Shown here piece after piece: positions 1,205-7,855 of a DNA stretch of 7,890 nt; the first letter of the stretch is position 1, and each line of letters starts with the position of its first letter. The notes beneath the pieces were generated by a model that was not told the origin of the DNA, did no database searches, and saw only the letters and a list, made by a program, of their open reading frames with translations. A program made the position numbers and the translations under genes. The DNA comes from a virus (lineage: Duplodnaviria > Heunggongvirae > Uroviricota > Caudoviricetes). The stretch is from IMG/VR virus record IMGVR_UViG_3300014523_000016. One strand, written 5' to 3'.

Positions 1205-1491
1205 GGTTTACTCTCCACGACCTGGTCAATAGCCATGCTAAGTGACACACCTAAAGTCTCGATATGCTGCTGAATATCCTGTAGCGTCTGCGCCTGAGAT
1301 AACAGGATTTCATGGTTGCATAATTCTTTAACCAGATGCTCAAACTTGCTGTAATAACCGATACGGCTTAGTGTTTCTTTCCCTGCATTCTCACCTTCTT
1401 TGATAATTCCTCTTTCGCTAAGAATCAAGTCGTGTTTGGTTCCGGTAATAACGTATTTTCCGAGGTCGATGTTTAGCTTCATTGTTTTCAT
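1201..1491 (-). CDS. hypothetical phage protein (96 aa)
   Basis: Part of ORF track 1201..1641. Start chosen at ATG 1491 ([13 protein letters not shown]...) because it has SD GAGGAA with a 6-nt spacer; in-frame ATGs at 1509 and 1524 are alternatives. Lies just downstream of the stop of the preceding ORF at 1502. Confidence 0.55.
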
Positions 1492-1696: not shown

Positions 1697-1721
1697 TATC
1701 CGATCGTANNNNNNNNNNNNT

Positions 1722-1822: not shown

Positions 1823-2206
1823 TTAGAAGGGAATTGAATCGTCGTATTCAGGATGATTTTGATGATTGCTACTTTGTTGCTGTTGGCTGTTTCCTGAAGT
1901 TGCAAATCCAATCTTTGCATTCAGTAATTCAAGAGTGATTGATTGACCATTTTGCCCCTGATAAGCATCAACCCTGATGTTTTCTCCGGTAATTTCAACA
2001 ATGCCTCCTTCAACCAGAACGCTACGGTAGTAATCCGCTTGCGCTCCCGGCTTGGCAAATACAACGGCGCTGTAGTTTGTCCATTCTTTCTTTTTTGTCT
2101 GGCGATCGTAATACTGAACGCCAGCACGGATGTTGAATCCGATATTTTCCCCGGCCTGAAACTCTCTTGCGGGCTTGTTTAGTCTTACAGTAATCGAATG
2201 TGCCAT
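1823..2206 (-). CDS. ssb: single-stranded DNA-binding protein-like (127 aa) with acidic C-terminal tail ending DDSIPF
   Basis: Within ORF track 1823..2296. Start ATG 2206..2204 overlaps the ERF stop TAA (2208..2206) by 1 nt (TAATG); SD AAGGAG upstream. The C-terminus EYDDSIPF resembles the conserved SSB tail (E. coli SSB ends DDDIPF, from memory), preceded by a Gln/Ser-rich linker. Confidence 0.6.
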   Translation of the reverse strand: MAHSITVRLNKPAREFQAGENIGFNIRAGVQYYDRQTKKKEWTNYSAVVFAKPGAQADYYRSVLVEGGIVEITGENIRVDAYQGQNGQSITLELLNAKIGFATSGNSQQQQSSNHQNHPEYDDSIPF

Positions 2207-2811
2207 TAAGCAGCCGCTCCTTCTAATTCGTCTCGTCTGATGTTGTAAACGTCCTGCGCTTTGTGCTGCTCCGGTGTGCCTTCGAGCATCTTCCACGCTT
2301 TGGCGAACGCCTGTTTAAGCTCTTCCACGGTGTTTTTCTGCAATGCTGCGTCAGTGAATGCTTTTAGAACCTGTTCAGGTGTAGGTGATGGTTTTGATTG
2401 CTTTGCTGCTGCGTTCTGCTGATGTTTATGCTCGTCTGTATCTGCATCTTTCGCATCATCTATGCCGAACAAACCATTGAGGCAATACTTGCGTGCATAA
2501 GAGCTTGTAGCTCCAGTAACTTGTGCAGAATCCATTCCTTTCTTGCTTTCTTCCTCTCGTGCAAGGGCGGTTGCCGTATGACTGTTTTCGCCATCGGTAA
2601 TAGTTGCCGTGGCTTTCACGTAATACCGATCACCAATCAACACAACTTCATCGCTGATTGATAAAAACAGGCCATTCAGTAGCGGCTTAACGCCTTCAAG
2701 AATGTCTTCGCAGCTTCTGTATTTATATTTACCGAATGAGTTGTACTGATTCTTTGGCGCGTTCAGATTCTCCTGAATAGCTGCCAGTCTTGCGTAAAAT
2801 TCTTTGCTCAT
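2206..2811 (-). CDS. erf: ERF-family single-strand annealing recombination protein (201 aa)
   Basis: Within ORF track 2206..2841, whose first codon is TTG. I prefer ATG 2811 (MSKEFYARLAAIQENLNAPKNQYNSFGKYKYRSCEDILEGVKPLL...), preceded by a GAGAA SD-like motif. The N-terminal sequence matches my recollection of P22 Erf-type proteins. Translationally coupled to the downstream SSB-like gene. Confidence 0.8.
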   Translation of the reverse strand: MSKEFYARLAAIQENLNAPKNQYNSFGKYKYRSCEDILEGVKPLLNGLFLSISDEVVLIGDRYYVKATATITDGENSHTATALAREEESKKGMDSAQVTGATSSYARKYCLNGLFGIDDAKDADTDEHKHQQNAAAKQSKPSPTPEQVLKAFTDAALQKNTVEELKQAFAKAWKMLEGTPEQHKAQDVYNIRRDELEGAAA

Positions 2812-2821
2812 ATGATTGTTC

Positions 2822-2992
2822 TCAGAATGGACATGGCCCAAGTAAATAACGCTGATTTAATACTTCAGTCTTTGCCGCATTTAAAAATACGCGAACACCT
2901 TCACGATCTCCCTTTTGGCGATACATTAACGCCTGCTGCGTGTACATGCGTCTCTGTAACTTGCTCTCCTTCACTGTGGTTGCAAGTGACAT
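2822..2992 (-). CDS. hypothetical small basic protein (56 aa) immediately upstream of erf
   Basis: Hand-translated: MSLATTVKESKLQRRMYTQQALMYRQKGDREGVRVFLNAAKTEVLNQRYLLGPCPF. ATG at 2992 has a strong SD GAAGGAG with 6-nt spacer; stop TGA 2824..2822 is 10 nt before the erf ATG. Position matches the small accessory gene (arf) that precedes erf in P22, but no sequence identification is claimed. Overlaps the next ORF by 92 nt in another frame. Confidence 0.4.
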   Translation of the reverse strand: MSLATTVKESKLQRRMYTQQALMYRQKGDREGVRVFLNAAKTEVLNQRYLLGPCPF

Positions 2993-3071
2993 GAATATCT
3001 CCTTCGTTACCGATTAATTCTTTCATCTGACGAATGAATTCTTCGTCTGACCAGTTATCTGTAAAACTCAT
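2901..3071 (-). CDS. hypothetical small acidic protein (56 aa from the ATG overlapping the Kil-like stop)
   Basis: ORF track 2901..3086. The in-frame ATG 3071..3069 overlaps the Kil-like stop (3070..3068) as ATGA (MSFTDNWSDEEFIRQMKELIGNEGDIH...). The C-terminal third overlaps the 2822..2992 ORF, so only one of the two may be real over that stretch. Confidence 0.3.
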   Translation of the reverse strand: MSFTDNWSDEEFIRQMKELIGNEGDIHVTCNHSEGEQVTETHVHAAGVNVSPKGRS

Positions 3072-3220
3072 TTCCTGCGATACCACGGAAGGTTGATAGC
3101 TGATTTCATCGCTTTATTTGCTTCAATCCACATTTTTGAATCACCAATAAATCTGGCTATTACTGCTTTGTTCTGTGCAGCACGAAGCATCTGGTGATTA
3201 ATGGCTATTTCATTGCGCAT
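3068..3220 (-). CDS. kil: Kil-like small host-killing protein (50 aa)
   Basis: Hand-translated: MRNEIAINHQMLRAAQNKAVIARFIGDSKMWIEANKAMKSAINLPWYRRK. ATG 3220 is preceded by GGAGG (4-nt spacer) and overlaps the 3' end of the cIII-like gene. The cIII then kil order and small size match lambda; the FIGD-KM similarity to lambda Kil is from imperfect memory. Confidence 0.45.
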   Translation of the reverse strand: MRNEIAINHQMLRAAQNKAVIARFIGDSKMWIEANKAMKSAINLPWYRRK

Positions 3221-3339
3221 AACGCCTCCAGTTGTTTCTTTGCTGCTCTGATTAATTGTTTAACTCGGCGTGATAATTCAGATTCGTGCGGGTAGAAAGC
3301 GGACATGACGCCGCTACCCGCGAGCTGAAAGTGCATCAT
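3205..3339 (-). CDS. cIII: cIII-like protein (44 aa)
   Basis: Hand-translated: MMHFQLAGSGVMSAFYPHESELSRRVKQLIRAAKKQLEALCAMK. SD AAGGAG 6 nt upstream of ATG 3339. The central ES-L-R----L----K-L pattern parallels the lambda CIII helix (SESLLERITRKLRDGWKRL, from memory), and the gene lies directly upstream of the Kil-like gene as in lambda. Confidence 0.6.
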   Translation of the reverse strand: MMHFQLAGSGVMSAFYPHESELSRRVKQLIRAAKKQLEALCAMK

Positions 3340-3403: not shown

Positions 3404-3429
3404 ATAAAAAAGCCCTCACACTGGAGGGC
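3404..3429 (-). terminator. intrinsic terminator-like hairpin on the minus strand (tL-like), upstream of cIII
   Basis: Plus strand 3412..3417 gccctc and 3424..3429 gagggc form a 6-bp GC-rich stem with a 6-nt loop. The A-run at 3405..3411 gives a U-tract after the stem on the minus strand. The plus-strand tail is not T-rich, so it is unidirectional. Borders the N-run at 3435..3517. Confidence 0.45.
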
Positions 3430-3562
3430 AAAGANNNNNNNNNNNNNNNNNNNNNNNNNNNNNNNNNNNNNNNNNNNNNNNNNNNNNNNNNNNNNNNNNN
3501 NNNNNNNNNNNNNNNNNCAGTGCAGTGTTTATTCTGTTGTTAGTGCCAAAAATAAAGGCCGA

Positions 3563-4186
3563 CTATGCGGACTCGGAAGGAAGTCCAATCATCTTATTCA
3601 AATCTTCTACCCGTAAAGCAGGAAGTGCTGTACTTGCTTTGTCTGCTTCTTTTGGTAGCAATTCTTTGCTTTCAGGCCAAACTTCAATAAGTCGCTTAAC
3701 TGTTGTGACTGAGTTCAAAGCAGCCCATACATTTGATTCGATATCCTTTTTCTTGGCTTCAAGTTTTTGTTGCAATGCGCAGATTTCATCAAACCTTTTT
3801 GTTATTTCGTGTTCTGCATCAAACATGCATTTATCTTTGGTTGGAGTAGGGAGCAATATATCTTCGCCGTTGCCGTCTTTCCCATATGAATGCCATCCAA
3901 CCCTTCTGCCAGATACAGTCAGATAAATTGAAGTAGAACGAACATCGTATGAGTAAAATGAACATCCCATCTTTTCAAGTTCTTCACTTATAGCTACTAA
4001 CCTGGATGATAACTGATCCACTTCCTCAGTTTTCTTTTTACCGCCAAACGCAATAACTCTGGCGTCAAGTGCAAGCTGGTTCTTTAACTTTGTTACTTCT
4101 TCAAGTTCAGTGAAAACCCCAGACTTAATTAAAGCGTTACGAGCGATTTTCTCTTTCATTCTCGTAGTTAAGCGGATTGATGACAT
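3563..4186 (-). CDS. hypothetical protein (207 aa) between N and cIII; function unknown
   Basis: Within ORF track 3563..4246, whose first codon is TTG. I prefer ATG 4186 (MSSIRLTTRMKEKIARNALIKSGVF...) with SD GAGGA about 9 nt upstream. Lys/Glu-rich with predicted helical stretches, no transmembrane-like segment. No family recognised. Confidence 0.65.
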   Translation of the reverse strand: MSSIRLTTRMKEKIARNALIKSGVFTELEEVTKLKNQLALDARVIAFGGKKKTEEVDQLSSRLVAISEELEKMGCSFYSYDVRSTSIYLTVSGRRVGWHSYGKDGNGEDILLPTPTKDKCMFDAEHEITKRFDEICALQQKLEAKKKDIESNVWAALNSVTTVKRLIEVWPESKELLPKEADKASTALPALRVEDLNKMIGLPSESA

Positions 4187-4247
4187 ATTAATTCCTCTCA
4201 AATAAGTGGTTTGCTGCCTAATTTCATTTTCTGGCGACCAACACAAG

Positions 4248-4520
4248 TCATCTTGCTGTCAGTTGTTTTGATTTCCGATAGCCTGCCGCGTAAAGAGCTA
4301 CATTTGGAAGACAAGTTGAGCCTTCATATTTTCTGGTCAACGTTGTCAGTGTTATTACTTCTGCTCTCATTGCTGGTTTGCGCTTGCATTGCAAGACCAC
4401 TCGTGAAGGGGTTGGCCTGTGTAGCTTGTCGGAGCTGATCGCCTCCTGACTTTGCAGATTTGCACGACGAGCTCTACGGCGAGAAGCTGCGGTGCCTTTA
4501 AATTCTGTTTTTCTGGACAT
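4248..4520 (-). CDS. N: N-like transcription antitermination protein (90 aa) with N-terminal arginine-rich motif
   Basis: Within ORF track 4248..4592. ATG 4520 is preceded by GGAGG with a 5-nt spacer. Residues 13-25 SRRRARRANLQSQ parallel the lambda N arginine-rich motif (RRRERRAEKQAQW, from memory). Lies downstream of a nutL-like element and the pL/OL region. Confidence 0.8.
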   Translation of the reverse strand: MSRKTEFKGTAASRRRARRANLQSQEAISSDKLHRPTPSRVVLQCKRKPAMRAEVITLTTLTRKYEGSTCLPNVALYAAGYRKSKQLTAR

Positions 4521-4619: not shown

Positions 4620-4665
4620 GGCTTTTCAGCCACGTAGTCGAGTGTTCGACGTTGTTTAAAGAGCC
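4620..4665 (-). promoter_or_regulatory. nutL-like site: boxA, small spacer hairpin, boxB (read on the minus strand)
   Basis: Minus strand reads GGCTCTTTA (boxA-like, plus 4665..4657), a spacer hairpin GTCGA-ACAC-TCGAC (plus 4650..4637), and boxB GGCTGAAAAGCC (plus 4631..4620, stem GGCT/AGCC, GAAA loop). It aligns closely with the nutR-like element at 7428..7473 (shared GCTCTTT, AACAACG, CTACGT, GCTGAAAAGC). Confidence 0.7.
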
Positions 4666-4710: not shown

Positions 4711-4829
4711 ACTTTATCGAAATGATAAATTAATGGCAATAGCAAAATGATAAATTGTTTTAGTTTTCAAATATCCTGTTGATTATTATGGTTTTTTATT
4801 TGATTGCAGGAATTTATCAGAAGGAATAA
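4711..4829 (-). promoter_or_regulatory. OL/pL-like region: 17-bp operator palindromes and a candidate leftward promoter
   Basis: Perfect 17-bp palindrome TTTATCGAAATGATAAA at 4713..4729. Weaker sites of the same type at 4738..4754 (aatagcAAAATGATAAA) and 4813..4829 (TTTATCagaagGAATAA). On the minus strand a candidate pL has -35 TTGCCA (plus 4739..4734), 17-bp spacer, and -10 TAAAGT (plus 4716..4711), overlapping the first operator. The same -10 hexamer and operator family recur at the OR side. Confidence 0.55.
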
Positions 4830-4937
4830 AGAGACTTGAGGGGGATCAGAATTGCGCGTTTTAGTGAGTTGTATCTGTTTATNNNNNNNNNNNNNNNNNN
4901 NNNNNNNNNNNNNNNNNNNNNGACGCTGTAACCAAAG

Positions 4938-4962
4938 AAACCCGGGCGCTGAGGCCGGGTTT
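4938..4962 (-). terminator. intrinsic terminator after the cI-cassette operon (hairpin looks bidirectional)
   Basis: 8-bp stem aaacccgg (4938..4945) pairing with ccgggttt (4955..4962), 9-nt loop. On the minus strand the stem is followed by TTTCTTTGG; on the plus strand by TTTTTCT. Sits 3 nt after the stop of the 258-aa cassette gene and before the masked run and OL region. Confidence 0.55.
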
Positions 4963-4964
4963 TT

Positions 4965-5741
4965 CTAGGCTACCAGAGACTCAATCCAAGAGTCTCTGGT
5001 ATGGAATGGCAACACTCGTGCGGTATCATTAAATAGTAGTGATAGTTGCTGTAGCTCAGGTGTTAACCCATCGCTGTCAACTATTACAAATCTATTGTTT
5101 ATGTCAGGAACGACCTGACTTAAGTCAACAATCTTCCCAACTGTTGAGTGGGCAGTATTCCATCCCTTACTGCTGGCAAGGCTTACCGTAAACCCGCGTT
5201 TTGGTGGTATTAGTCGAGACTCATTCCTTAGCGTTAACGGAACAGTAATGTTATGCCCACTAATACCTTTCACTTTTTCCTTTAAGGCTAGTCGCTTCCC
5301 AAGCCCTGCTGATTTTAAGTAACTGATTACACATTTTTCGAACTTATCGTCTTTGACCTCAGCATACCAATCAGCAGTTTGGGCGGATGCAAGAATCCCA
5401 CCACGAATAACATTTGCAGTTACCTGTCCAACGGACGACTCATCTGCCCACGCAGATATCTCTCCAGAGTCATTTAATGAAATTCCTTGCGAAGCGAGTG
5501 ATGACCTGATCAGATCAATTTTCTTTTTAGTCAGGTGGATGCCGCGTGATTCAATATTCATCAATGTATCGCAGTAGTCTGTAACCCTATACTGACCACT
5601 CATCTCTTGAACGAATACACTTATCTGCTCACAATCATCGTAGTATGTGAAGGGACTAATAACGCGCAGCAACGTGTCGCTCATTGGGTGGCATTCAAAC
5701 CCGAGCTTAGATATGACTGTTGAACACGTTACATTTCCCAT
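4965..5741 (-). CDS. hypothetical protein (258 aa), second gene of the cassette in the rexAB-equivalent position; function unknown
   Basis: ORF track 4965..5741. ATG 5741..5739 lies 13 nt upstream of, and out of frame with, the stop of the preceding gene (TAA 5731..5729), suggesting coupling. No transmembrane-like hydrophobic stretch and no motif I recognise. Hand-sampled GC in this cassette is about 37-38% versus about 57% in a cI line. Confidence 0.75.
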   Translation of the reverse strand: MGNVTCSTVISKLGFECHPMSDTLLRVISPFTYYDDCEQISVFVQEMSGQYRVTDYCDTLMNIESRGIHLTKKKIDLIRSSLASQGISLNDSGEISAWADESSVGQVTANVIRGGILASAQTADWYAEVKDDKFEKCVISYLKSAGLGKRLALKEKVKGISGHNITVPLTLRNESRLIPPKRGFTVSLASSKGWNTAHSTVGKIVDLSQVVPDINNRFVIVDSDGLTPELQQLSLLFNDTARVLPFHTRDSWIESLVA

Positions 5742-6271
5742 GATAGCTGACCTGATTTATCTTGATTAGGTAAAGGTGGGCTGCCTTCATATATGATATT
5801 AAGCGCCTCGCAAAAATAATTCCAGTAGCCAAAAAAATCATCTGGCTTGATGTTCGTTTCAAGCTTAAGTGCAATTTCTTCCCCAGCTGATTCGAAGTAC
5901 ATGTGATAGTGAGGACCTCGAGCCACCTCAACAAAATCTGGATGGTTCACTATAGATTTATTACGGTGTGGCTTGTTATCCGCAGGGTACGGGTCAAGCG
6001 CGTAAATGCGCCTGTCATGAAGAAACATCACAAATGAAATCTTCACTATATCCACCCCTTCAACGATAGGAGGACGCCAGTGAAGCATAAATCTTATGCC
6101 TGTGATTGGGTTGCCAATTTCATCAAAAGCTTTGAGATCCAATTTAAACCAGATTGGGGTTCGTCCCTCACTTCCGGTCCATGTAACTCCGCTAAAAGTT
6201 ACTTTTTTCAAGCGAGTAATAGCTTGGTCAACCTCTTTCTGGGTAGGCTTAAAGTCGCCTTTTTTAGCCAC
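5729..6271 (-). CDS. hypothetical protein (180 aa), first gene of the cassette downstream of cI; function unknown
   Basis: ORF track 5729..6271. Start is GTG 6271..6269 with a GGTGA SD-like motif 11-12 nt upstream; first in-frame ATG is about 60 codons in, so the true start is uncertain. Same strand as cI, 97 nt after the cI stop. Contains His/Tyr-rich stretch GPHYHMYF. No family recognised. Confidence 0.65.
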   Translation of the reverse strand: MAKKGDFKPTQKEVDQAITRLKKVTFSGVTWTGSEGRTPIWFKLDLKAFDEIGNPITGIRFMLHWRPPIVEGVDIVKISFVMFLHDRRIYALDPYPADNKPHRNKSIVNHPDFVEVARGPHYHMYFESAGEEIALKLETNIKPDDFFGYWNYFCEALNIIYEGSPPLPNQDKSGQLSWEM

Positions 6272-6368: not shown

Positions 6369-7073
6369 TCACGAACTTTTCAGCCACTCCCTTGCCTCGA
6401 TGTCATCCAGATGGCGAGATTGCTTCAGAATACCAGCCACATACTCCACCTTTGCTACTTGATGATAAGGCAACGTTATTGGCCTATGGTCCTGGTTGAT
6501 GCTTGTAAACTGGTATTCTCCGTCTCTGTCATAGCCAAGAACTTTGATCATGTTGTGTCCTTCAACGGTTCTGACAAACACCTCATCACCCGGGAATACT
6601 TTGGTGTTAGGCTCAATGAGTACATATTCTCCTGATTTTATTCTAGGCCACATGCTGTCTCCTTTCACACGAAGACCAAAGGCATCTGGATCATCGCTAT
6701 AAATCTTGAGCCACCCATCGCGCTCTTCGGTCATCTCGATGGCACCATCAACACCAAGAATTGCCTCACCAACCACGCGCACTAACCCTTTTCTTACCTG
6801 ACCGACAAAAGTTAAAGAATCTGAGCATGATGCAATTGGTGTTACATCATGTACCAAATCAAGCCACCCATTAGGTAACCCAAGTGCGGCTTCGAATTTT
6901 CTTGCTAGTTTATCCCCTATGTTTCGAGTGCTTTTTTCACCGGAGACTTGCGTGAGTTGAGAAGGGCTAACTCCAAGCTTATCGGCAAAGCTTGCATTAG
7001 TGTTACCCGCGATTTTTTTATGCTCATCTAGCAAAAACGCCAGATTCGATTTGCGAATATCTTTGTTTTCCAT
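6369..7073 (-). CDS. cI: cI-type prophage repressor (234 aa): N-terminal HTH plus C-terminal LexA/S24-like autocleavage domain
   Basis: ORF track 6369..7073. ATG 7073 is preceded by GAGGGAG. N-terminal HTH-like segment ASFADKLGVSPSQLTQVSGEK. C-terminal domain has the S24 serine motif GDSM and a Lys (MIKVL) 37 residues later, the LexA-type Ser-Lys dyad spacing. Divergent from cro across an operator region. Confidence 0.9.
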   Translation of the reverse strand: MENKDIRKSNLAFLLDEHKKIAGNTNASFADKLGVSPSQLTQVSGEKSTRNIGDKLARKFEAALGLPNGWLDLVHDVTPIASCSDSLTFVGQVRKGLVRVVGEAILGVDGAIEMTEERDGWLKIYSDDPDAFGLRVKGDSMWPRIKSGEYVLIEPNTKVFPGDEVFVRTVEGHNMIKVLGYDRDGEYQFTSINQDHRPITLPYHQVAKVEYVAGILKQSRHLDDIEAREWLKSS

Positions 7074-7100: not shown

Positions 7101-7177
7101 TGGATAAATACGCATTTTGATAAATCTCCATTGCAGTTTATTTATCAAAATGGTAAAGTTGCTCTGTGTGATAAACG
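7101..7177. promoter_or_regulatory. OR-like operator region between cI and cro
   Basis: Four GATAAA/TTTATC half-sites (7104..7109, 7119..7124, 7141..7146 on the other strand, 7170..7175). An 11-bp inverted repeat ttttgataaat (7115..7125) / atttatcaaaa (7140..7150). A 17-bp site TTTATCAAAATGGTAAA at 7141..7157 matches the OL palindrome type with one mismatch. pRM must lie here but I could not place its hexamers. Confidence 0.6.
7131..7159 (+). promoter_or_regulatory. candidate pR promoter for cro
   Basis: -35 TTGCAG (7131..7136), 17-bp spacer, -10 TAAAGT (7154..7159), about 28 nt upstream of the cro ATG and overlapping the 17-bp operator. Same -10 hexamer and spacing as the candidate pL. Hexamers are moderate matches only. 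Confidence 0.45.
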
Positions 7178-7186
7178 GAGGCACTA

Positions 7187-7420
7187 ATGAGTAATGAACT
7201 ACTACGCTGGCGAAAAGAGGCTTCTAGTGAGGAATGGAAGCGACTCGCCGCATTAGCGAATACTTCAGTTGGCTATCTTGATCAGATTGCATATGGGTTT
7301 CGAAGAGCTTCCCCAGATAAAGCGAATGCAATCGAAGAAGCCACTCGTAATTTCACGGGTTATAAACCTGTGAAAAAGGAAAATCTGGTGTTCGTATCGC
7401 GTAGAGCATCAGCAGCATAA
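7187..7420 (+). CDS. cro: Cro-like HTH regulator (77 aa)
   Basis: ORF track 7187..7420. ATG preceded by GGAGG with a 5-nt spacer. Divergent from cI across the operator region and followed by nutR and cII. HTH-like segment LAALANTSVGYLDQIAYGFRR. Assignment rests mainly on position. Confidence 0.7.
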   Translation: MSNELLRWRKEASSEEWKRLAALANTSVGYLDQIAYGFRRASPDKANAIEEATRNFTGYKPVKKENLVFVSRRASAA

Positions 7421-7558: not shown

Positions 7559-7855
7559 ATGGAACAAACAAGTTACAGCAAACTATCCCAGCGTGACGTT
7601 GATCGCGCAGAAACAGATTTACTCATCAACCTGTCAACGCTTACCCAGCGCGGTCTGGCAAAGATGATTGGCTGTCATGAATCGAAGATAAGCAGAACGG
7701 ACTGGAGGTTTATTGCTTCGGTCTTGTGTGCTTTCGGAATGGCATCAGACATCAGTCCGATTAGCAGGGCTTTTAAGTATGCATTGGATGGAATCACAAA
7801 GAAAAAATCCCCGGTTGCCGCCGGGGACTCTAAGCAAATTGATATGCAATTCTGA
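7559..7855 (+). CDS. cII: cII-like transcriptional activator (98 aa)
   Basis: ORF track 7559..7855. The central HESKISRTDWRF segment and the C-terminus TKKKSPVAAGDSKQIDMQF parallel lambda CII (...SQISRWKRDW... and TNKKRPAATERSEQIQMEF, from memory). Weak RBS. Position after cro and nutR is as in lambda. Confidence 0.85.
   Translation: MEQTSYSKLSQRDVDRAETDLLINLSTLTQRGLAKMIGCHESKISRTDWRFIASVLCAFGMASDISPISRAFKYALDGITKKKSPVAAGDSKQIDMQF

What the first reader, a model, noticed from the sequence alone, without database searches (positions are those of the whole stretch)
3563..4186. 207-aa unknown gene directly downstream of N in the pL operon
It occupies the N-to-cIII interval, which in lambda carries non-essential accessory genes such as ral and sieB. 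It has a good RBS, no recognisable motif, and its 3' flank is masked by the N-run at 3435..3517 just before a minus-strand terminator hairpin. An early-expressed accessory function (host takeover, exclusion or counter-defence) is possible but unsupported by sequence alone.
Basis: inference. Interest (0 to 1): 0.5.

Follow-up and report, generated by a model that had tools for sequence, protein, structure and literature searches.

The report
Nmad5-family early gene after N
The 207-codon gene just downstream of the phage antiterminator N is real and conserved, but it is not an orphan: it is a full-length member of the widespread phage "Nmad5" protein family, whose function nobody has yet shown by experiment.

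Summary
The claim of "no recognisable motif" is wrong. The protein matches Pfam PF18757 (Nmad5) end to end (E 4e-72). It is 100% identical at the DNA level to a gene whose product RefSeq already names "Nmad5 family putative nucleotide modification protein". The gene occurs in 211 of 5426 complete E. coli genomes and in many lambdoid and Stx phages.

The family is large (2272 clusters), about 200 aa, never seen fused to another domain, and has no conserved partner gene. It occurs in temperate and virulent phages of Proteobacteria, usually in early replication/recombination modules. A confident model (pLDDT 92) is a helical bundle with a small beta-hairpin. It has no relative of known function in PDB or BFVD.

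No base-modification gene lies nearby. No intrinsic terminator was found between pL and the gene's 3' end, so it is probably immediate-early, made together with N. In Dhillonvirus, a published escape mutation against the Tmn defence maps to the residue equivalent to R165.

My best guess, at low confidence, is a dispensable binding or adaptor protein that acts on host DNA metabolism or host defence, not a modifying enzyme. Verdict: ordinary, already-named family; function still open.

The parts
3563..4186 (-). Nmad5-family CDS, 207 aa (the finding)
   Evidence: ORF. Pfam PF18757 E 3.7e-72, full length. phrog_1965 E 1e-83. The DNA is 100% identical to RefSeq genes whose product (WP_021518644.1) is named 'Nmad5 family putative nucleotide modification protein'. 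dN/dS about 0.29. AF2 pLDDT 92.1.
4193..4199 (-). Shine-Dalgarno GAGAGGA, 6 nt upstream of the ATG
   Evidence: Read directly from the sequence.
4248..4520 (-). Antiterminator N (90 aa from the ATG at 4520). Its stop is 61 nt before the Nmad5 start, with no terminator between them.
   Evidence: Pfam N_peptide E 3.4e-32. phrog_271. The terminator scan found no minus-strand site between 3429 and 5000.
4637..4664 (-). nutL-like site: boxA GCTCTTTAAACAA (4664-4652) followed by a boxB-like hairpin GTCGAACACTCGAC (4650-4637)
   Evidence: Sequence. The hairpin was also picked up by the scan on the + strand. Calling it nutL is an inference from the lambda nut architecture.
4711..4739 (-). pL-like promoter TTGCCA-17-TAAAGT, flanked by operator-like repeats TTTATCATTT (4720-4729 and 4745-4754)
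   Evidence: Promoter scan. Repeat search also found a 1-mismatch copy in the cI-cro interval at 7148-7157. The match count is not above chance on its own; the assignment is an inference from position.
3430..3562 (-). Conserved 3' untranslated element (partly masked at 3435-3517). In relatives it holds a 14-bp hairpin and a boxA-like CGCTC(G/T)TAAC.
   Evidence: The masked stretch was filled in from relatives with identical flanks (26 loci share one 84-nt sequence), from mEp235 and from an E. coli chromosome. The fold z-score is -5.3. The element stays with the gene when the downstream genes differ. No Rfam family matches it.
3412..3429 (-). First intrinsic terminator found after pL (tL1-like): GCCCTCCAGTGTGAGGGC followed by TTTTTT. 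A second, weaker hairpin lies at 3391-3372.
   Evidence: Terminator scan.
3205..3339 (-). cIII, the next gene downstream
   Evidence: Pfam cIII E 2e-30.

Best explanation
Shown: the ORF is a genuine, selected phage gene and a full-length member of the Nmad5 family (PF18757). It is a stand-alone protein of about 200 aa.

Inferred: it is transcribed from pL in the same unit as N and ahead of the first intrinsic terminator. That would make it immediate-early, produced without needing N-mediated antitermination.

Proposed mechanism (inference, low confidence): it is a binding or adaptor protein, not a base-modifying enzyme. Its helical bundle brings two conserved motifs together into one conserved, mostly basic and polar site. 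The N-terminal motif is RLT..K..I..NA..K...R..GG. The C-terminal motif is VTTVK(K/R)L..WPE..ELLP...LPA....DLN..IGLP. I propose that this site engages a conserved partner in host DNA metabolism or host immunity, or the phage's own replicating and recombining DNA. The effect would be to protect or promote phage DNA very early in lytic growth. The gene is dispensable under permissive conditions.
For: Identity:
- Pfam 243 bits, covering profile positions 1-206 of 206.
- 145 diverse family representatives all match Nmad5 and no other family recurrently.
- The signature residues W170, P171, E172, L176, P178, L196, N197 and G201 are all present.

Real gene: dN/dS 0.29.

Immediate-early placement:
- The pL-like promoter with operator-like repeats and the nutL-like site lie upstream of N.
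- No intrinsic terminator was found between pL and 3429.
- The terminator together with the conserved 3' element travels with the gene.

Probably not an enzyme:
- Only P178 and N197 are invariant across the family.
- The model is a helical bundle with a beta-hairpin (pLDDT 86 and 92).
- No base-modification gene lies in the window or in the flanks of mEp235 or the E. coli prophage.

One conserved site:
- Conserved basic positions are R5, K11, K21, K35, R43, K164 and R165. Conserved acidic positions are E172 and E175.
- The model shows single-residue beta-bridges at residues 5 and 162. That the N-terminal RLT and the VTT motif therefore lie side by side is my inference, because I had no coordinates.

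Evolvable binding surface: the Dhillonvirus Tmn-escape substitutions K216E (SM_A8) and K296E (SM_S22) align to window R165. In the paper, deleting nmad5 did not give escape, and the wild-type gene could not be cloned, apparently because it is toxic (PMC11846954).

DNA-metabolism context in unrelated phages:
- Next to DEDDh exonucleases.
- Next to the N4 gp42-like PD-(D/E)XK exonuclease.
- Next to thymidylate synthase.
- Two genes upstream of DUF2800 and of Dam or MT-A70 methylases, and in modules that also hold DNA polymerase, SSB or RecT.

Dispensable: an IS3-type element interrupts the gene in Stx2a phages, and truncated clusters are common.
Against: - No experiment or structural relative assigns any activity.
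- The partner is unidentified.
- The conserved polar and basic site could equally bind a small ligand, or even be catalytic.
- Recurrent neighbours such as thymidylate synthase, aGPT-Pplase, PurZ and DNA methylases fit the original 'modification-associated' idea.
- Immediate-early status rests on a simple terminator scan that cannot see Rho-dependent terminators.
- I had no model coordinates, so the convergence of the two motifs is inferred from secondary-structure output only.
- The Tmn result comes from a 31%-identical homologue in a different genomic context.
Confidence: 0.35

Rival explanations
1. It is a counter-defence protein in the strict sense. It would be an immediate-early inhibitor that binds and blocks a host immune or nuclease system, as T7 Ocr or lambda Ral/Gam do, with a specificity that can shift by point mutation.
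For: - It is the first gene after N, in an interval known to hold accessory genes. mEp235 also carries a Nun-like gene there.
- In Dhillonvirus, and in one metagenomic siphovirus, the gene is inserted moron-style into the head module. In Dhillonvirus it sits on the opposite strand to the surrounding head genes.
- A single K-to-E change at the R165-equivalent residue lets the phage escape Tmn, whereas deletion does not. That is a gain-of-function pattern typical of a binder (mapping).
- The gene is dispensable.
Against: - It has no PADLOC hit, and no anti-defence family library was available to search.
- The family is very broad and strongly conserved at the motif level across hosts, which is unusual for inhibitors of fast-evolving defence proteins.
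- Its pI is neutral (median 7.7), so it is not a DNA mimic.
- It coexists with a dedicated anti-RecBCD gene in mEp235 and in the E. coli prophage.
- In lytic phages it sits inside replication modules, not in the earliest genes.
Confidence: 0.25
2. It is what the family name implies: a component or cofactor of a DNA or nucleotide modification pathway. In lambdoid phages it would work with a host enzyme, for example by stimulating host methylation in the way Ral does.
For: - The family recurs beside base- and nucleotide-modification genes: aGPT-Pplase1 and the thymidylate-synthase homologue in Yuavirus (SN1 paper), a PurZ/DatZ-type cluster, Dam, MT-A70, C5 and N6/N4 methylases, and DUF4406.
- In this window it occupies the position that ral occupies in lambda. 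That positional point comes from my own knowledge.
Against: - No modification gene lies in the window or in the flanks of close relatives.
- There is no enzyme-like fold and no catalytic signature.
- The term Nmad5 does not appear in the M6 pathway reconstitution paper (PMC8989533).
- Many family members sit in contexts with no modification genes at all.
Confidence: 0.12
3. It is a replication or recombination accessory factor that works with the phage's own exonuclease, annealase and SSB module. It might act as a mediator, or as a regulator of an exonuclease acting on phage DNA ends.
For: - An exonuclease lies immediately downstream in three unrelated lineages.
- DUF2800 with an Enc34-type ssDNA-binding protein, and RecT, AAA_24 and DUF669, occur among the neighbours.
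- In the window it shares the pL operon with Erf and an SSB-like gene. In mEp235 and the E. coli prophage the operon also holds a 3'-5' exonuclease.
- It has conserved basic residues.
Against: - No neighbour is conserved by sequence across loci.
- The head-module and integrase-adjacent copies have no recombination genes nearby.
- Its net charge is neutral.
- Stx2a phages tolerate its disruption.
Confidence: 0.2

Closest known systems
Nmad5 (Pfam PF18757) of thymidine-hypermodifying Pseudomonas phages M6/SN1/PAC6 (Yuavirus)
   Same: Same Pfam family. tblastn aligns the C-terminal 42% of the window protein at 31-44% identity, and the gene is annotated 'Nmad5 domain-containing protein' in PAC6. 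It is a stand-alone protein of similar size in an early or DNA-metabolism region.
   Different: There it lies between aGPT-Pplase1 and the thymidylate-synthase homologue, inside a hypermodification cassette. Here no modification genes lie nearby, and the neighbours are N, cIII, kil, Erf and an SSB-like gene.
Dhillonvirus Nmad5 (phages SM_A8, SM_S22, KS_S9; PMC11846954)
   Same: Full-length Pfam Nmad5 match (E 1e-55). It is 31% identical to the window protein and shares the C-terminal TxK(K/R)L..WPE...P...LN..G.P motif. The Tmn-escape residue corresponds to window R165.
   Different: It is 254-334 aa, with a large insertion around the beta-hairpin region. It is encoded on the opposite strand inside the head module of a virulent phage. 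No Tmn link has been tested for the lambdoid protein.
mEp235 gp37 / HK542 / Kapi1 / Stx1- and Stx2-phage orthologues, and E. coli prophage WP_021518644.1
   Same: 94-100% identical protein in the same position in the pL operon, with the same 3' hairpin-terminator element.
   Different: The flanking modules differ. mEp235 has a Nun-like gene between N and this gene. Other N alleles, other immunity regions and other downstream genes occur. The Stx2a copies are interrupted by an IS element.
Lambda ral / sieB / ea10 (positional analogues in the N-cIII interval)
   Same: They occupy the same non-essential interval of the pL operon. This rests on established lambda genetics (my own knowledge) plus the window's gene order.
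   Different: No sequence relationship. Pfam, PHROGs and NCBIfam report only Nmad5/phrog_1965. Unlike sieB, this gene shows no sign of prophage expression, and its family also occurs in virulent phages.

Membership tests
Nmad5 (Pfam PF18757) | Full-length match to the family HMM above the curated gathering score | tested here: met
   243.2 bits against a cut-off of 27. Residues 4-203 match profile positions 1-206 of 206. RefSeq gives an identical gene's product the family name.
Nmad5 (Pfam PF18757) | Family signature residues: N-terminal R..I..NA..K / R..GG and C-terminal T..L...WPE..EL.P ... LN...GLP | tested here: met
   R5, I14, A18, R43, G48, G93, T162, L166, W170, P171, E172, L176, P178, L196, N197 and G201 are all present in the window protein. 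All are at least 89% conserved among 145 representatives.
Nmad5 (Pfam PF18757) | Stand-alone protein of about 200 aa in phages or prophages | tested here: met
   The full-length members among the top 150 representatives are about 180-230 aa (the few shorter entries are partial). No second Pfam domain appears in any of about 170 homologues. All contexts examined are phage or prophage.
Nmad5 (Pfam PF18757) | Gene-neighbourhood association with base- or nucleotide-modification genes (the basis of the family's name) | tested here: not met
   None in the 7.9-kb window, nor in the flanks of mEp235 or the E. coli prophage. This is a contextual feature, not a sequence criterion, so membership stands, but the implied function is not supported here.
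Nmad5 (Pfam PF18757) | A biochemical role in nucleotide or DNA modification | not testable with these tools
   No activity is reported in the papers found. There is no enzyme-like fold.
DNA-mimic anti-restriction proteins (Ocr/ArdA type) | Strongly acidic protein that mimics DNA | tested here: not met
   pI 7.6 with net charge about +1. The family median pI is 7.7. No fold match.
Lambda-type pL accessory proteins (Ral, SieB, Gam, Abc2, Kil, cIII) | Sequence match to the respective Pfam or PHROG models | tested here: not met
   Only Nmad5 and phrog_1965 match the 207-aa protein. Kil and cIII are separate downstream genes.
Known anti-phage defence proteins (PADLOC-DB) | Match to a defence-system HMM | tested here: not met
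   No family matched the 207-aa protein.

The most novel reading that the evidence does not exclude
Nmad5 has nothing to do with base modification. Instead it is a very widespread phage effector with one conserved composite basic site that includes K164 and R165. Through that site it engages a conserved host factor or immune sensor, such as KAP-NTPase Tmn-type systems or a DNA-repair nuclease. In lambdoid and Stx phages it would be deployed as an immediate-early protein co-transcribed with N. The family would then need to be renamed and would define a new class of early host-modulating proteins.
Probability: 0.25. Interest if true: 0.6.

Novelty: already known. Interest (0 to 1): 0.3.

Why it matters
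The gene itself is already catalogued, so the finding adds no new entity. What remains open is the function of a very common phage family: 2272 sequence clusters, about 4% of complete E. coli genomes, and many Shiga-toxin phages. Its name rests only on guilt by association.

The lambdoid copies are a clean test case. They have no modification genes nearby, they appear to be made at the very start of lytic growth, and they sit in genetically tractable phages such as mEp235 and HK542. The published Tmn-escape mutation maps onto a conserved basic residue (R165 here), which gives a concrete allele to test.

If the protein proves to be a host-targeting or counter-defence factor, that would matter for phage-therapy engineering and for Stx-phage biology. 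If it has no phenotype, it is just one more accessory gene.

Tried and rejected
- **Domain fusions.** None were found among about 170 homologues.
- **A second Pfam family shared by members.** There is none. The weak YfjL_C hit (E 0.0045) is seen only in the window protein.
- **A conserved partner gene.** All-against-all BLAST of neighbours from 26 diverse loci found none beyond close relatives.
- **NCBIfam and PADLOC.** No hits for the 207-aa protein.
- **The masked 3' flank as a known RNA.** No Rfam match in the equivalent mEp235 sequence or in the window.
- **The validated NMAD defence domain in DefensePredictor.** It is Nmad2, not Nmad5, so it is irrelevant here.
- **Literature.** Searches for PF18757, phrog_1965, mEp235 and PhiR12 gave nothing functional. 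The 2013 paper that I believe defined the Nmad domains is not in the library.
- **Taxonomic spread.** The genome-contig scan returned only 7 Enterobacterales loci, too few to say anything. A broad alignment was too divergent for a locus scan.
- **DNA-mimic hypothesis.** Rejected on charge.
- **Superinfection exclusion.** Rejected as the main reading, because the gene lies in the lytic operon and the family occurs in virulent phages.

Full report
**The observation.** The window is the immunity and early-left region of a lambdoid phage. The genes, from right to left, are:
- cII, 7559-7855(+)
- a cro-like gene, 7187-7420(+)
- a LexA/S24-type repressor, 6369-7073(-)
- two genes in the position of rexAB, 5729-6271(-) and 4965-5741(-)
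- N, 4248-4520(-)
- the ORF in question, 3563-4186(-)
- cIII, 3205-3339(-)
- kil, 3068-3220(-)
- a small protein that PHROGs labels 'recombinase', 2901-3086(-)
- Erf, 2206-2811(-)
- an SSB-like gene, 1823-2296(-)

The ORF starts at the ATG at 4186, is preceded by GAGAGGA six bases upstream, and ends with TAG at 3565-3563. It encodes 207 aa. The coordinates and context of the finding are therefore correct.

**What it is.** The statement that the protein has no recognisable motif is wrong. It matches Pfam PF18757, 'nucleotide modification associated domain 5' (Nmad5), over its whole length: E 3.7e-72, 243 bits against a 27-bit cut-off. It also matches PHROG 1965, a family of unknown function, at E 1e-83.

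The same gene is widespread:
- It is 100% identical at the DNA level in several complete E. coli chromosomes, where PGAP names the product 'Nmad5 family putative nucleotide modification protein' (WP_021518644.1).
- It is present in 211 of 5426 complete E. coli genomes.
- It is 99.5% identical to gp37 of phage mEp235.
- It is 94-97% identical to proteins of Kapi1 and many Stx1 and Stx2 phages, and the HK542 gene region is about 97% identical at the DNA level.

Among 70 distinct close alleles dN/dS is about 0.29, so the gene is under purifying selection.

**The family.** A profile search of 1.84 billion representative proteins found 2272 clusters at E <= 1e-3 and 149 at E <= 1e-30. Apart from a few partial sequences, the 150 best hits are about 180-230 aa long. 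None of about 170 homologues carries a second Pfam domain. When 145 representatives were scanned one by one, no other Pfam family recurred.

Across these 145 sequences (mean column identity 30%; 26-57% identity to the window protein) only P178 and N197 are invariant. The signature has two parts:
- an N-terminal block, RLT...R..I..NA..KAG ... AE.VR...LGG
- an especially conserved C-terminal block, VTTVK(K/R)LL..WPE..ELLP, then about nine variable residues, then LPA....DLN..IGLP

Seven positions are conserved as basic (R5, K11, K21, K35, R43, K164, R165) and two as acidic (E172, E175). Overall charge is neutral: pI 7.6 here and a family median of 7.7. That rules out an Ocr- or ArdA-like DNA mimic.

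**Structure.** AlphaFold2 gave a confident model: pLDDT 86 with 23 sequences and 92.1 (pTM 0.83) with 145 sequences. The model has these elements:
- three helices at residues 8-72, two of them more than 20 residues long
- a beta-hairpin at 86-100
- a 32-residue helix at 127-158
- short helices carrying the WPE motif
- a flexible linker at 181-190
- a final helix at 194-200 that is modelled with fair confidence

Single-residue beta-bridges at residues 5 and 162 suggest that the conserved N- and C-terminal motifs meet in one site. This is my inference, because I had no coordinates.

**Genomic context elsewhere.** The family occurs in both temperate and virulent phages of Proteobacteria. The contexts I examined were:
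- In N4-like Pollock it lies between thymidylate synthase and the N4 gp42-like PD-(D/E)XK exonuclease, inside the replication module.
- In Yuavirus it lies between aGPT-Pplase1 and the thymidylate-synthase homologue.
- In a phage that encodes a PurZ-like adenylosuccinate-synthase homologue and dATP/dGTP pyrophosphohydrolase-type genes, it sits beside a DEDDh exonuclease.
- In another lytic phage it is directly followed by an Rv2179c-like exonuclease.
- In two temperate phages it lies near the start of the early-left operon, two genes before a Dam or MT-A70 methylase.
- In one phage it lies two genes upstream of a DUF2800 nuclease, which is followed by an Enc34-type ssDNA-binding protein.
- In Dhillonvirus it is a moron inserted into the head module on the opposite strand. 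One metagenomic siphovirus carries a similar head-module copy.
- In a further 68 neighbouring proteins the recurrent Pfam families were exonucleases, DNA methylases and recombination or replication proteins.

No neighbour is conserved by sequence across lineages. The protein therefore works as a solitary module. The common theme is early DNA metabolism, not one particular modification pathway.

**Context here.** Upstream of N there is a sigma-70-like promoter, TTGCCA-17-TAAAGT, at 4739-4711. It is embedded in two exact copies of TTTATCATTT, and a one-mismatch copy lies between the repressor and cro genes. Downstream of the promoter come a boxA-like GCTCTTTAAACAA and a boxB-like hairpin at 4664-4637. 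The scan found no intrinsic terminator on the minus strand between this promoter and 3429.

N stops 61 nt before the Nmad5 start. The first terminator lies about 135 nt after the Nmad5 stop. I therefore infer that the gene belongs to the immediate-early transcript together with N. This remains an inference, because Rho-dependent termination cannot be scanned.

I recovered the masked stretch from relatives with identical flanks. It is 84 nt long and nearly invariant. It contains a 14-bp hairpin and a boxA-like CGCTC(G/T)TAAC. It folds far better than shuffled controls (z -5.3) and matches no Rfam family. It also stays attached to the gene when the downstream genes differ. The mobile unit is therefore the gene plus its 3' hairpin and terminator. 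Homology breakpoints with 80 related loci confirm that this unit recombines independently of N alleles, immunity regions and downstream genes.

**Dispensability.** In Stx2a-converting phages the gene is interrupted near codon 33 by an insertion element that encodes HTH_Tnp_1 and rve transposase ORFs, leaving a 152-aa remnant. Clusters of truncated proteins are abundant.

**What the literature says.** Only four papers in the library mention Nmad5. The SN1 genome note lists it among the M6-type thymidine hypermodification cassette genes. The paper reconstituting those pathways never uses the term.

The one functional clue is from Yamashita et al. 2025 (PMC11846954). Dhillonvirus mutants that escape the Tmn defence carry K216E (SM_A8) or K296E (SM_S22) in Nmad5. 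Reverting the change restores sensitivity. Deleting the gene does not give escape. The wild-type gene could not be cloned, apparently because it is toxic. I fetched both phages and aligned the proteins. The substituted lysine corresponds to R165 of the window protein, one of the conserved basic positions next to the WPE motif. A gain-of-function charge reversal on a conserved surface is what one expects of a binding protein whose specificity has shifted. However, that homologue is only 31% identical and sits in a different context.

The 'NMAD' domain in a validated defence system from the DefensePredictor study is Nmad2, not Nmad5.

**Interpretation.** The identity as an Nmad5-family member is essentially certain. 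The mechanism is not known.

My preferred reading is a non-enzymatic binding or adaptor protein, made at the very start of lytic growth. Its single conserved basic and polar site would engage a conserved component of host DNA metabolism or immunity, or the phage's own DNA intermediates. I put this at about 0.35. It overlaps with two narrower versions:
- a strict counter-defence inhibitor (0.25)
- a recombination or replication accessory factor working with phage exonucleases (0.20)

The name-implied role in base modification is the least supported here (0.12). No modification genes are nearby, and there is no enzyme-like fold or catalytic signature. Superinfection exclusion is unlikely, because the gene lies in the repressed lytic operon and the family is common in virulent phages.

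**Verdict.** The finding is a correct description of a real gene, but the gene is already catalogued under a family name. Novelty is 'already known'. Residual interest is 0.3. It comes from the unresolved function of a very common phage family, from the observation that lambdoid copies lack any modification context and appear to be immediate-early, and from the testable R165 allele.

Noticed in passing
window 4965-6271 (-): Two overlapping genes lie directly downstream of the repressor, in the position that rexAB holds in lambda. They are 5729-6271 (180 aa, DUF6978, PADLOC candidate PDC-M24A) and 4965-5741 (258 aa, DUF1828, PDC-M24B). A strong terminator-like hairpin follows at about 4932-4962. 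This looks like a prophage-expressed candidate defence pair with no validated function. The PADLOC and Pfam scores are weak for the first gene (Pfam below cut-off; PADLOC E 4e-4).
   Followed up: partly
window 3430-3562 (-), masked at 3435-3517; equivalent sequence in L001 3600-3770 and L169: A conserved 3' element follows the Nmad5 gene: a perfect 14-bp hairpin, a boxA-like CGCTC(G/T)TAAC, and then the terminator. It is nearly invariant in relatives, folds with z = -5.3, matches no Rfam family, and travels with the gene when the downstream genes change. It could be an mRNA-stabilising or processing site, or a 3'UTR-derived RNA.
   Followed up: partly
window 1709-1720, 3435-3517 and 4883-4921: The window has three masked N-runs, not one. 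The third lies upstream of the predicted pL, between it and the terminator of the repressor operon. Only the second was reconstructed from relatives.
   Followed up: partly
window 1208-1487 (-): A cassette of about 280 nt is absent from most related loci, where the flanks are adjacent. It encodes a roughly 96-aa protein (DUF5405, weak; phrog_154, labelled 'replication initiation protein'). The listed 146-aa ORF 1201-1641 probably starts at an internal Met near 1491.
   Followed up: partly
L179 (Stx2a phage Stx2_06E050) 238-1451 and 1567-2025: An IS3-type element (108-aa HTH_Tnp_1 ORF plus 296-aa rve ORF) is inserted into the 5' part of the Nmad5 gene, leaving a 152-aa remnant ORF. The same truncated protein cluster has 232 member sequences.
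   Followed up: yes
window 4637-4664 and 4711-4754 (-): A nutL-like boxA and boxB, and a pL-like promoter with two exact TTTATCATTT repeats, lie here. A one-mismatch copy sits in the cI-cro interval at 7148-7157. These are probably operator half-sites for this immunity type. The repeat count alone is not above chance.
   Followed up: partly
L001 4525-4863 (mEp235): In mEp235 a Nun-like transcription-termination (exclusion) gene sits between N and the Nmad5 gene. This shows that the same interval collects different accessory cassettes.
   Followed up: no
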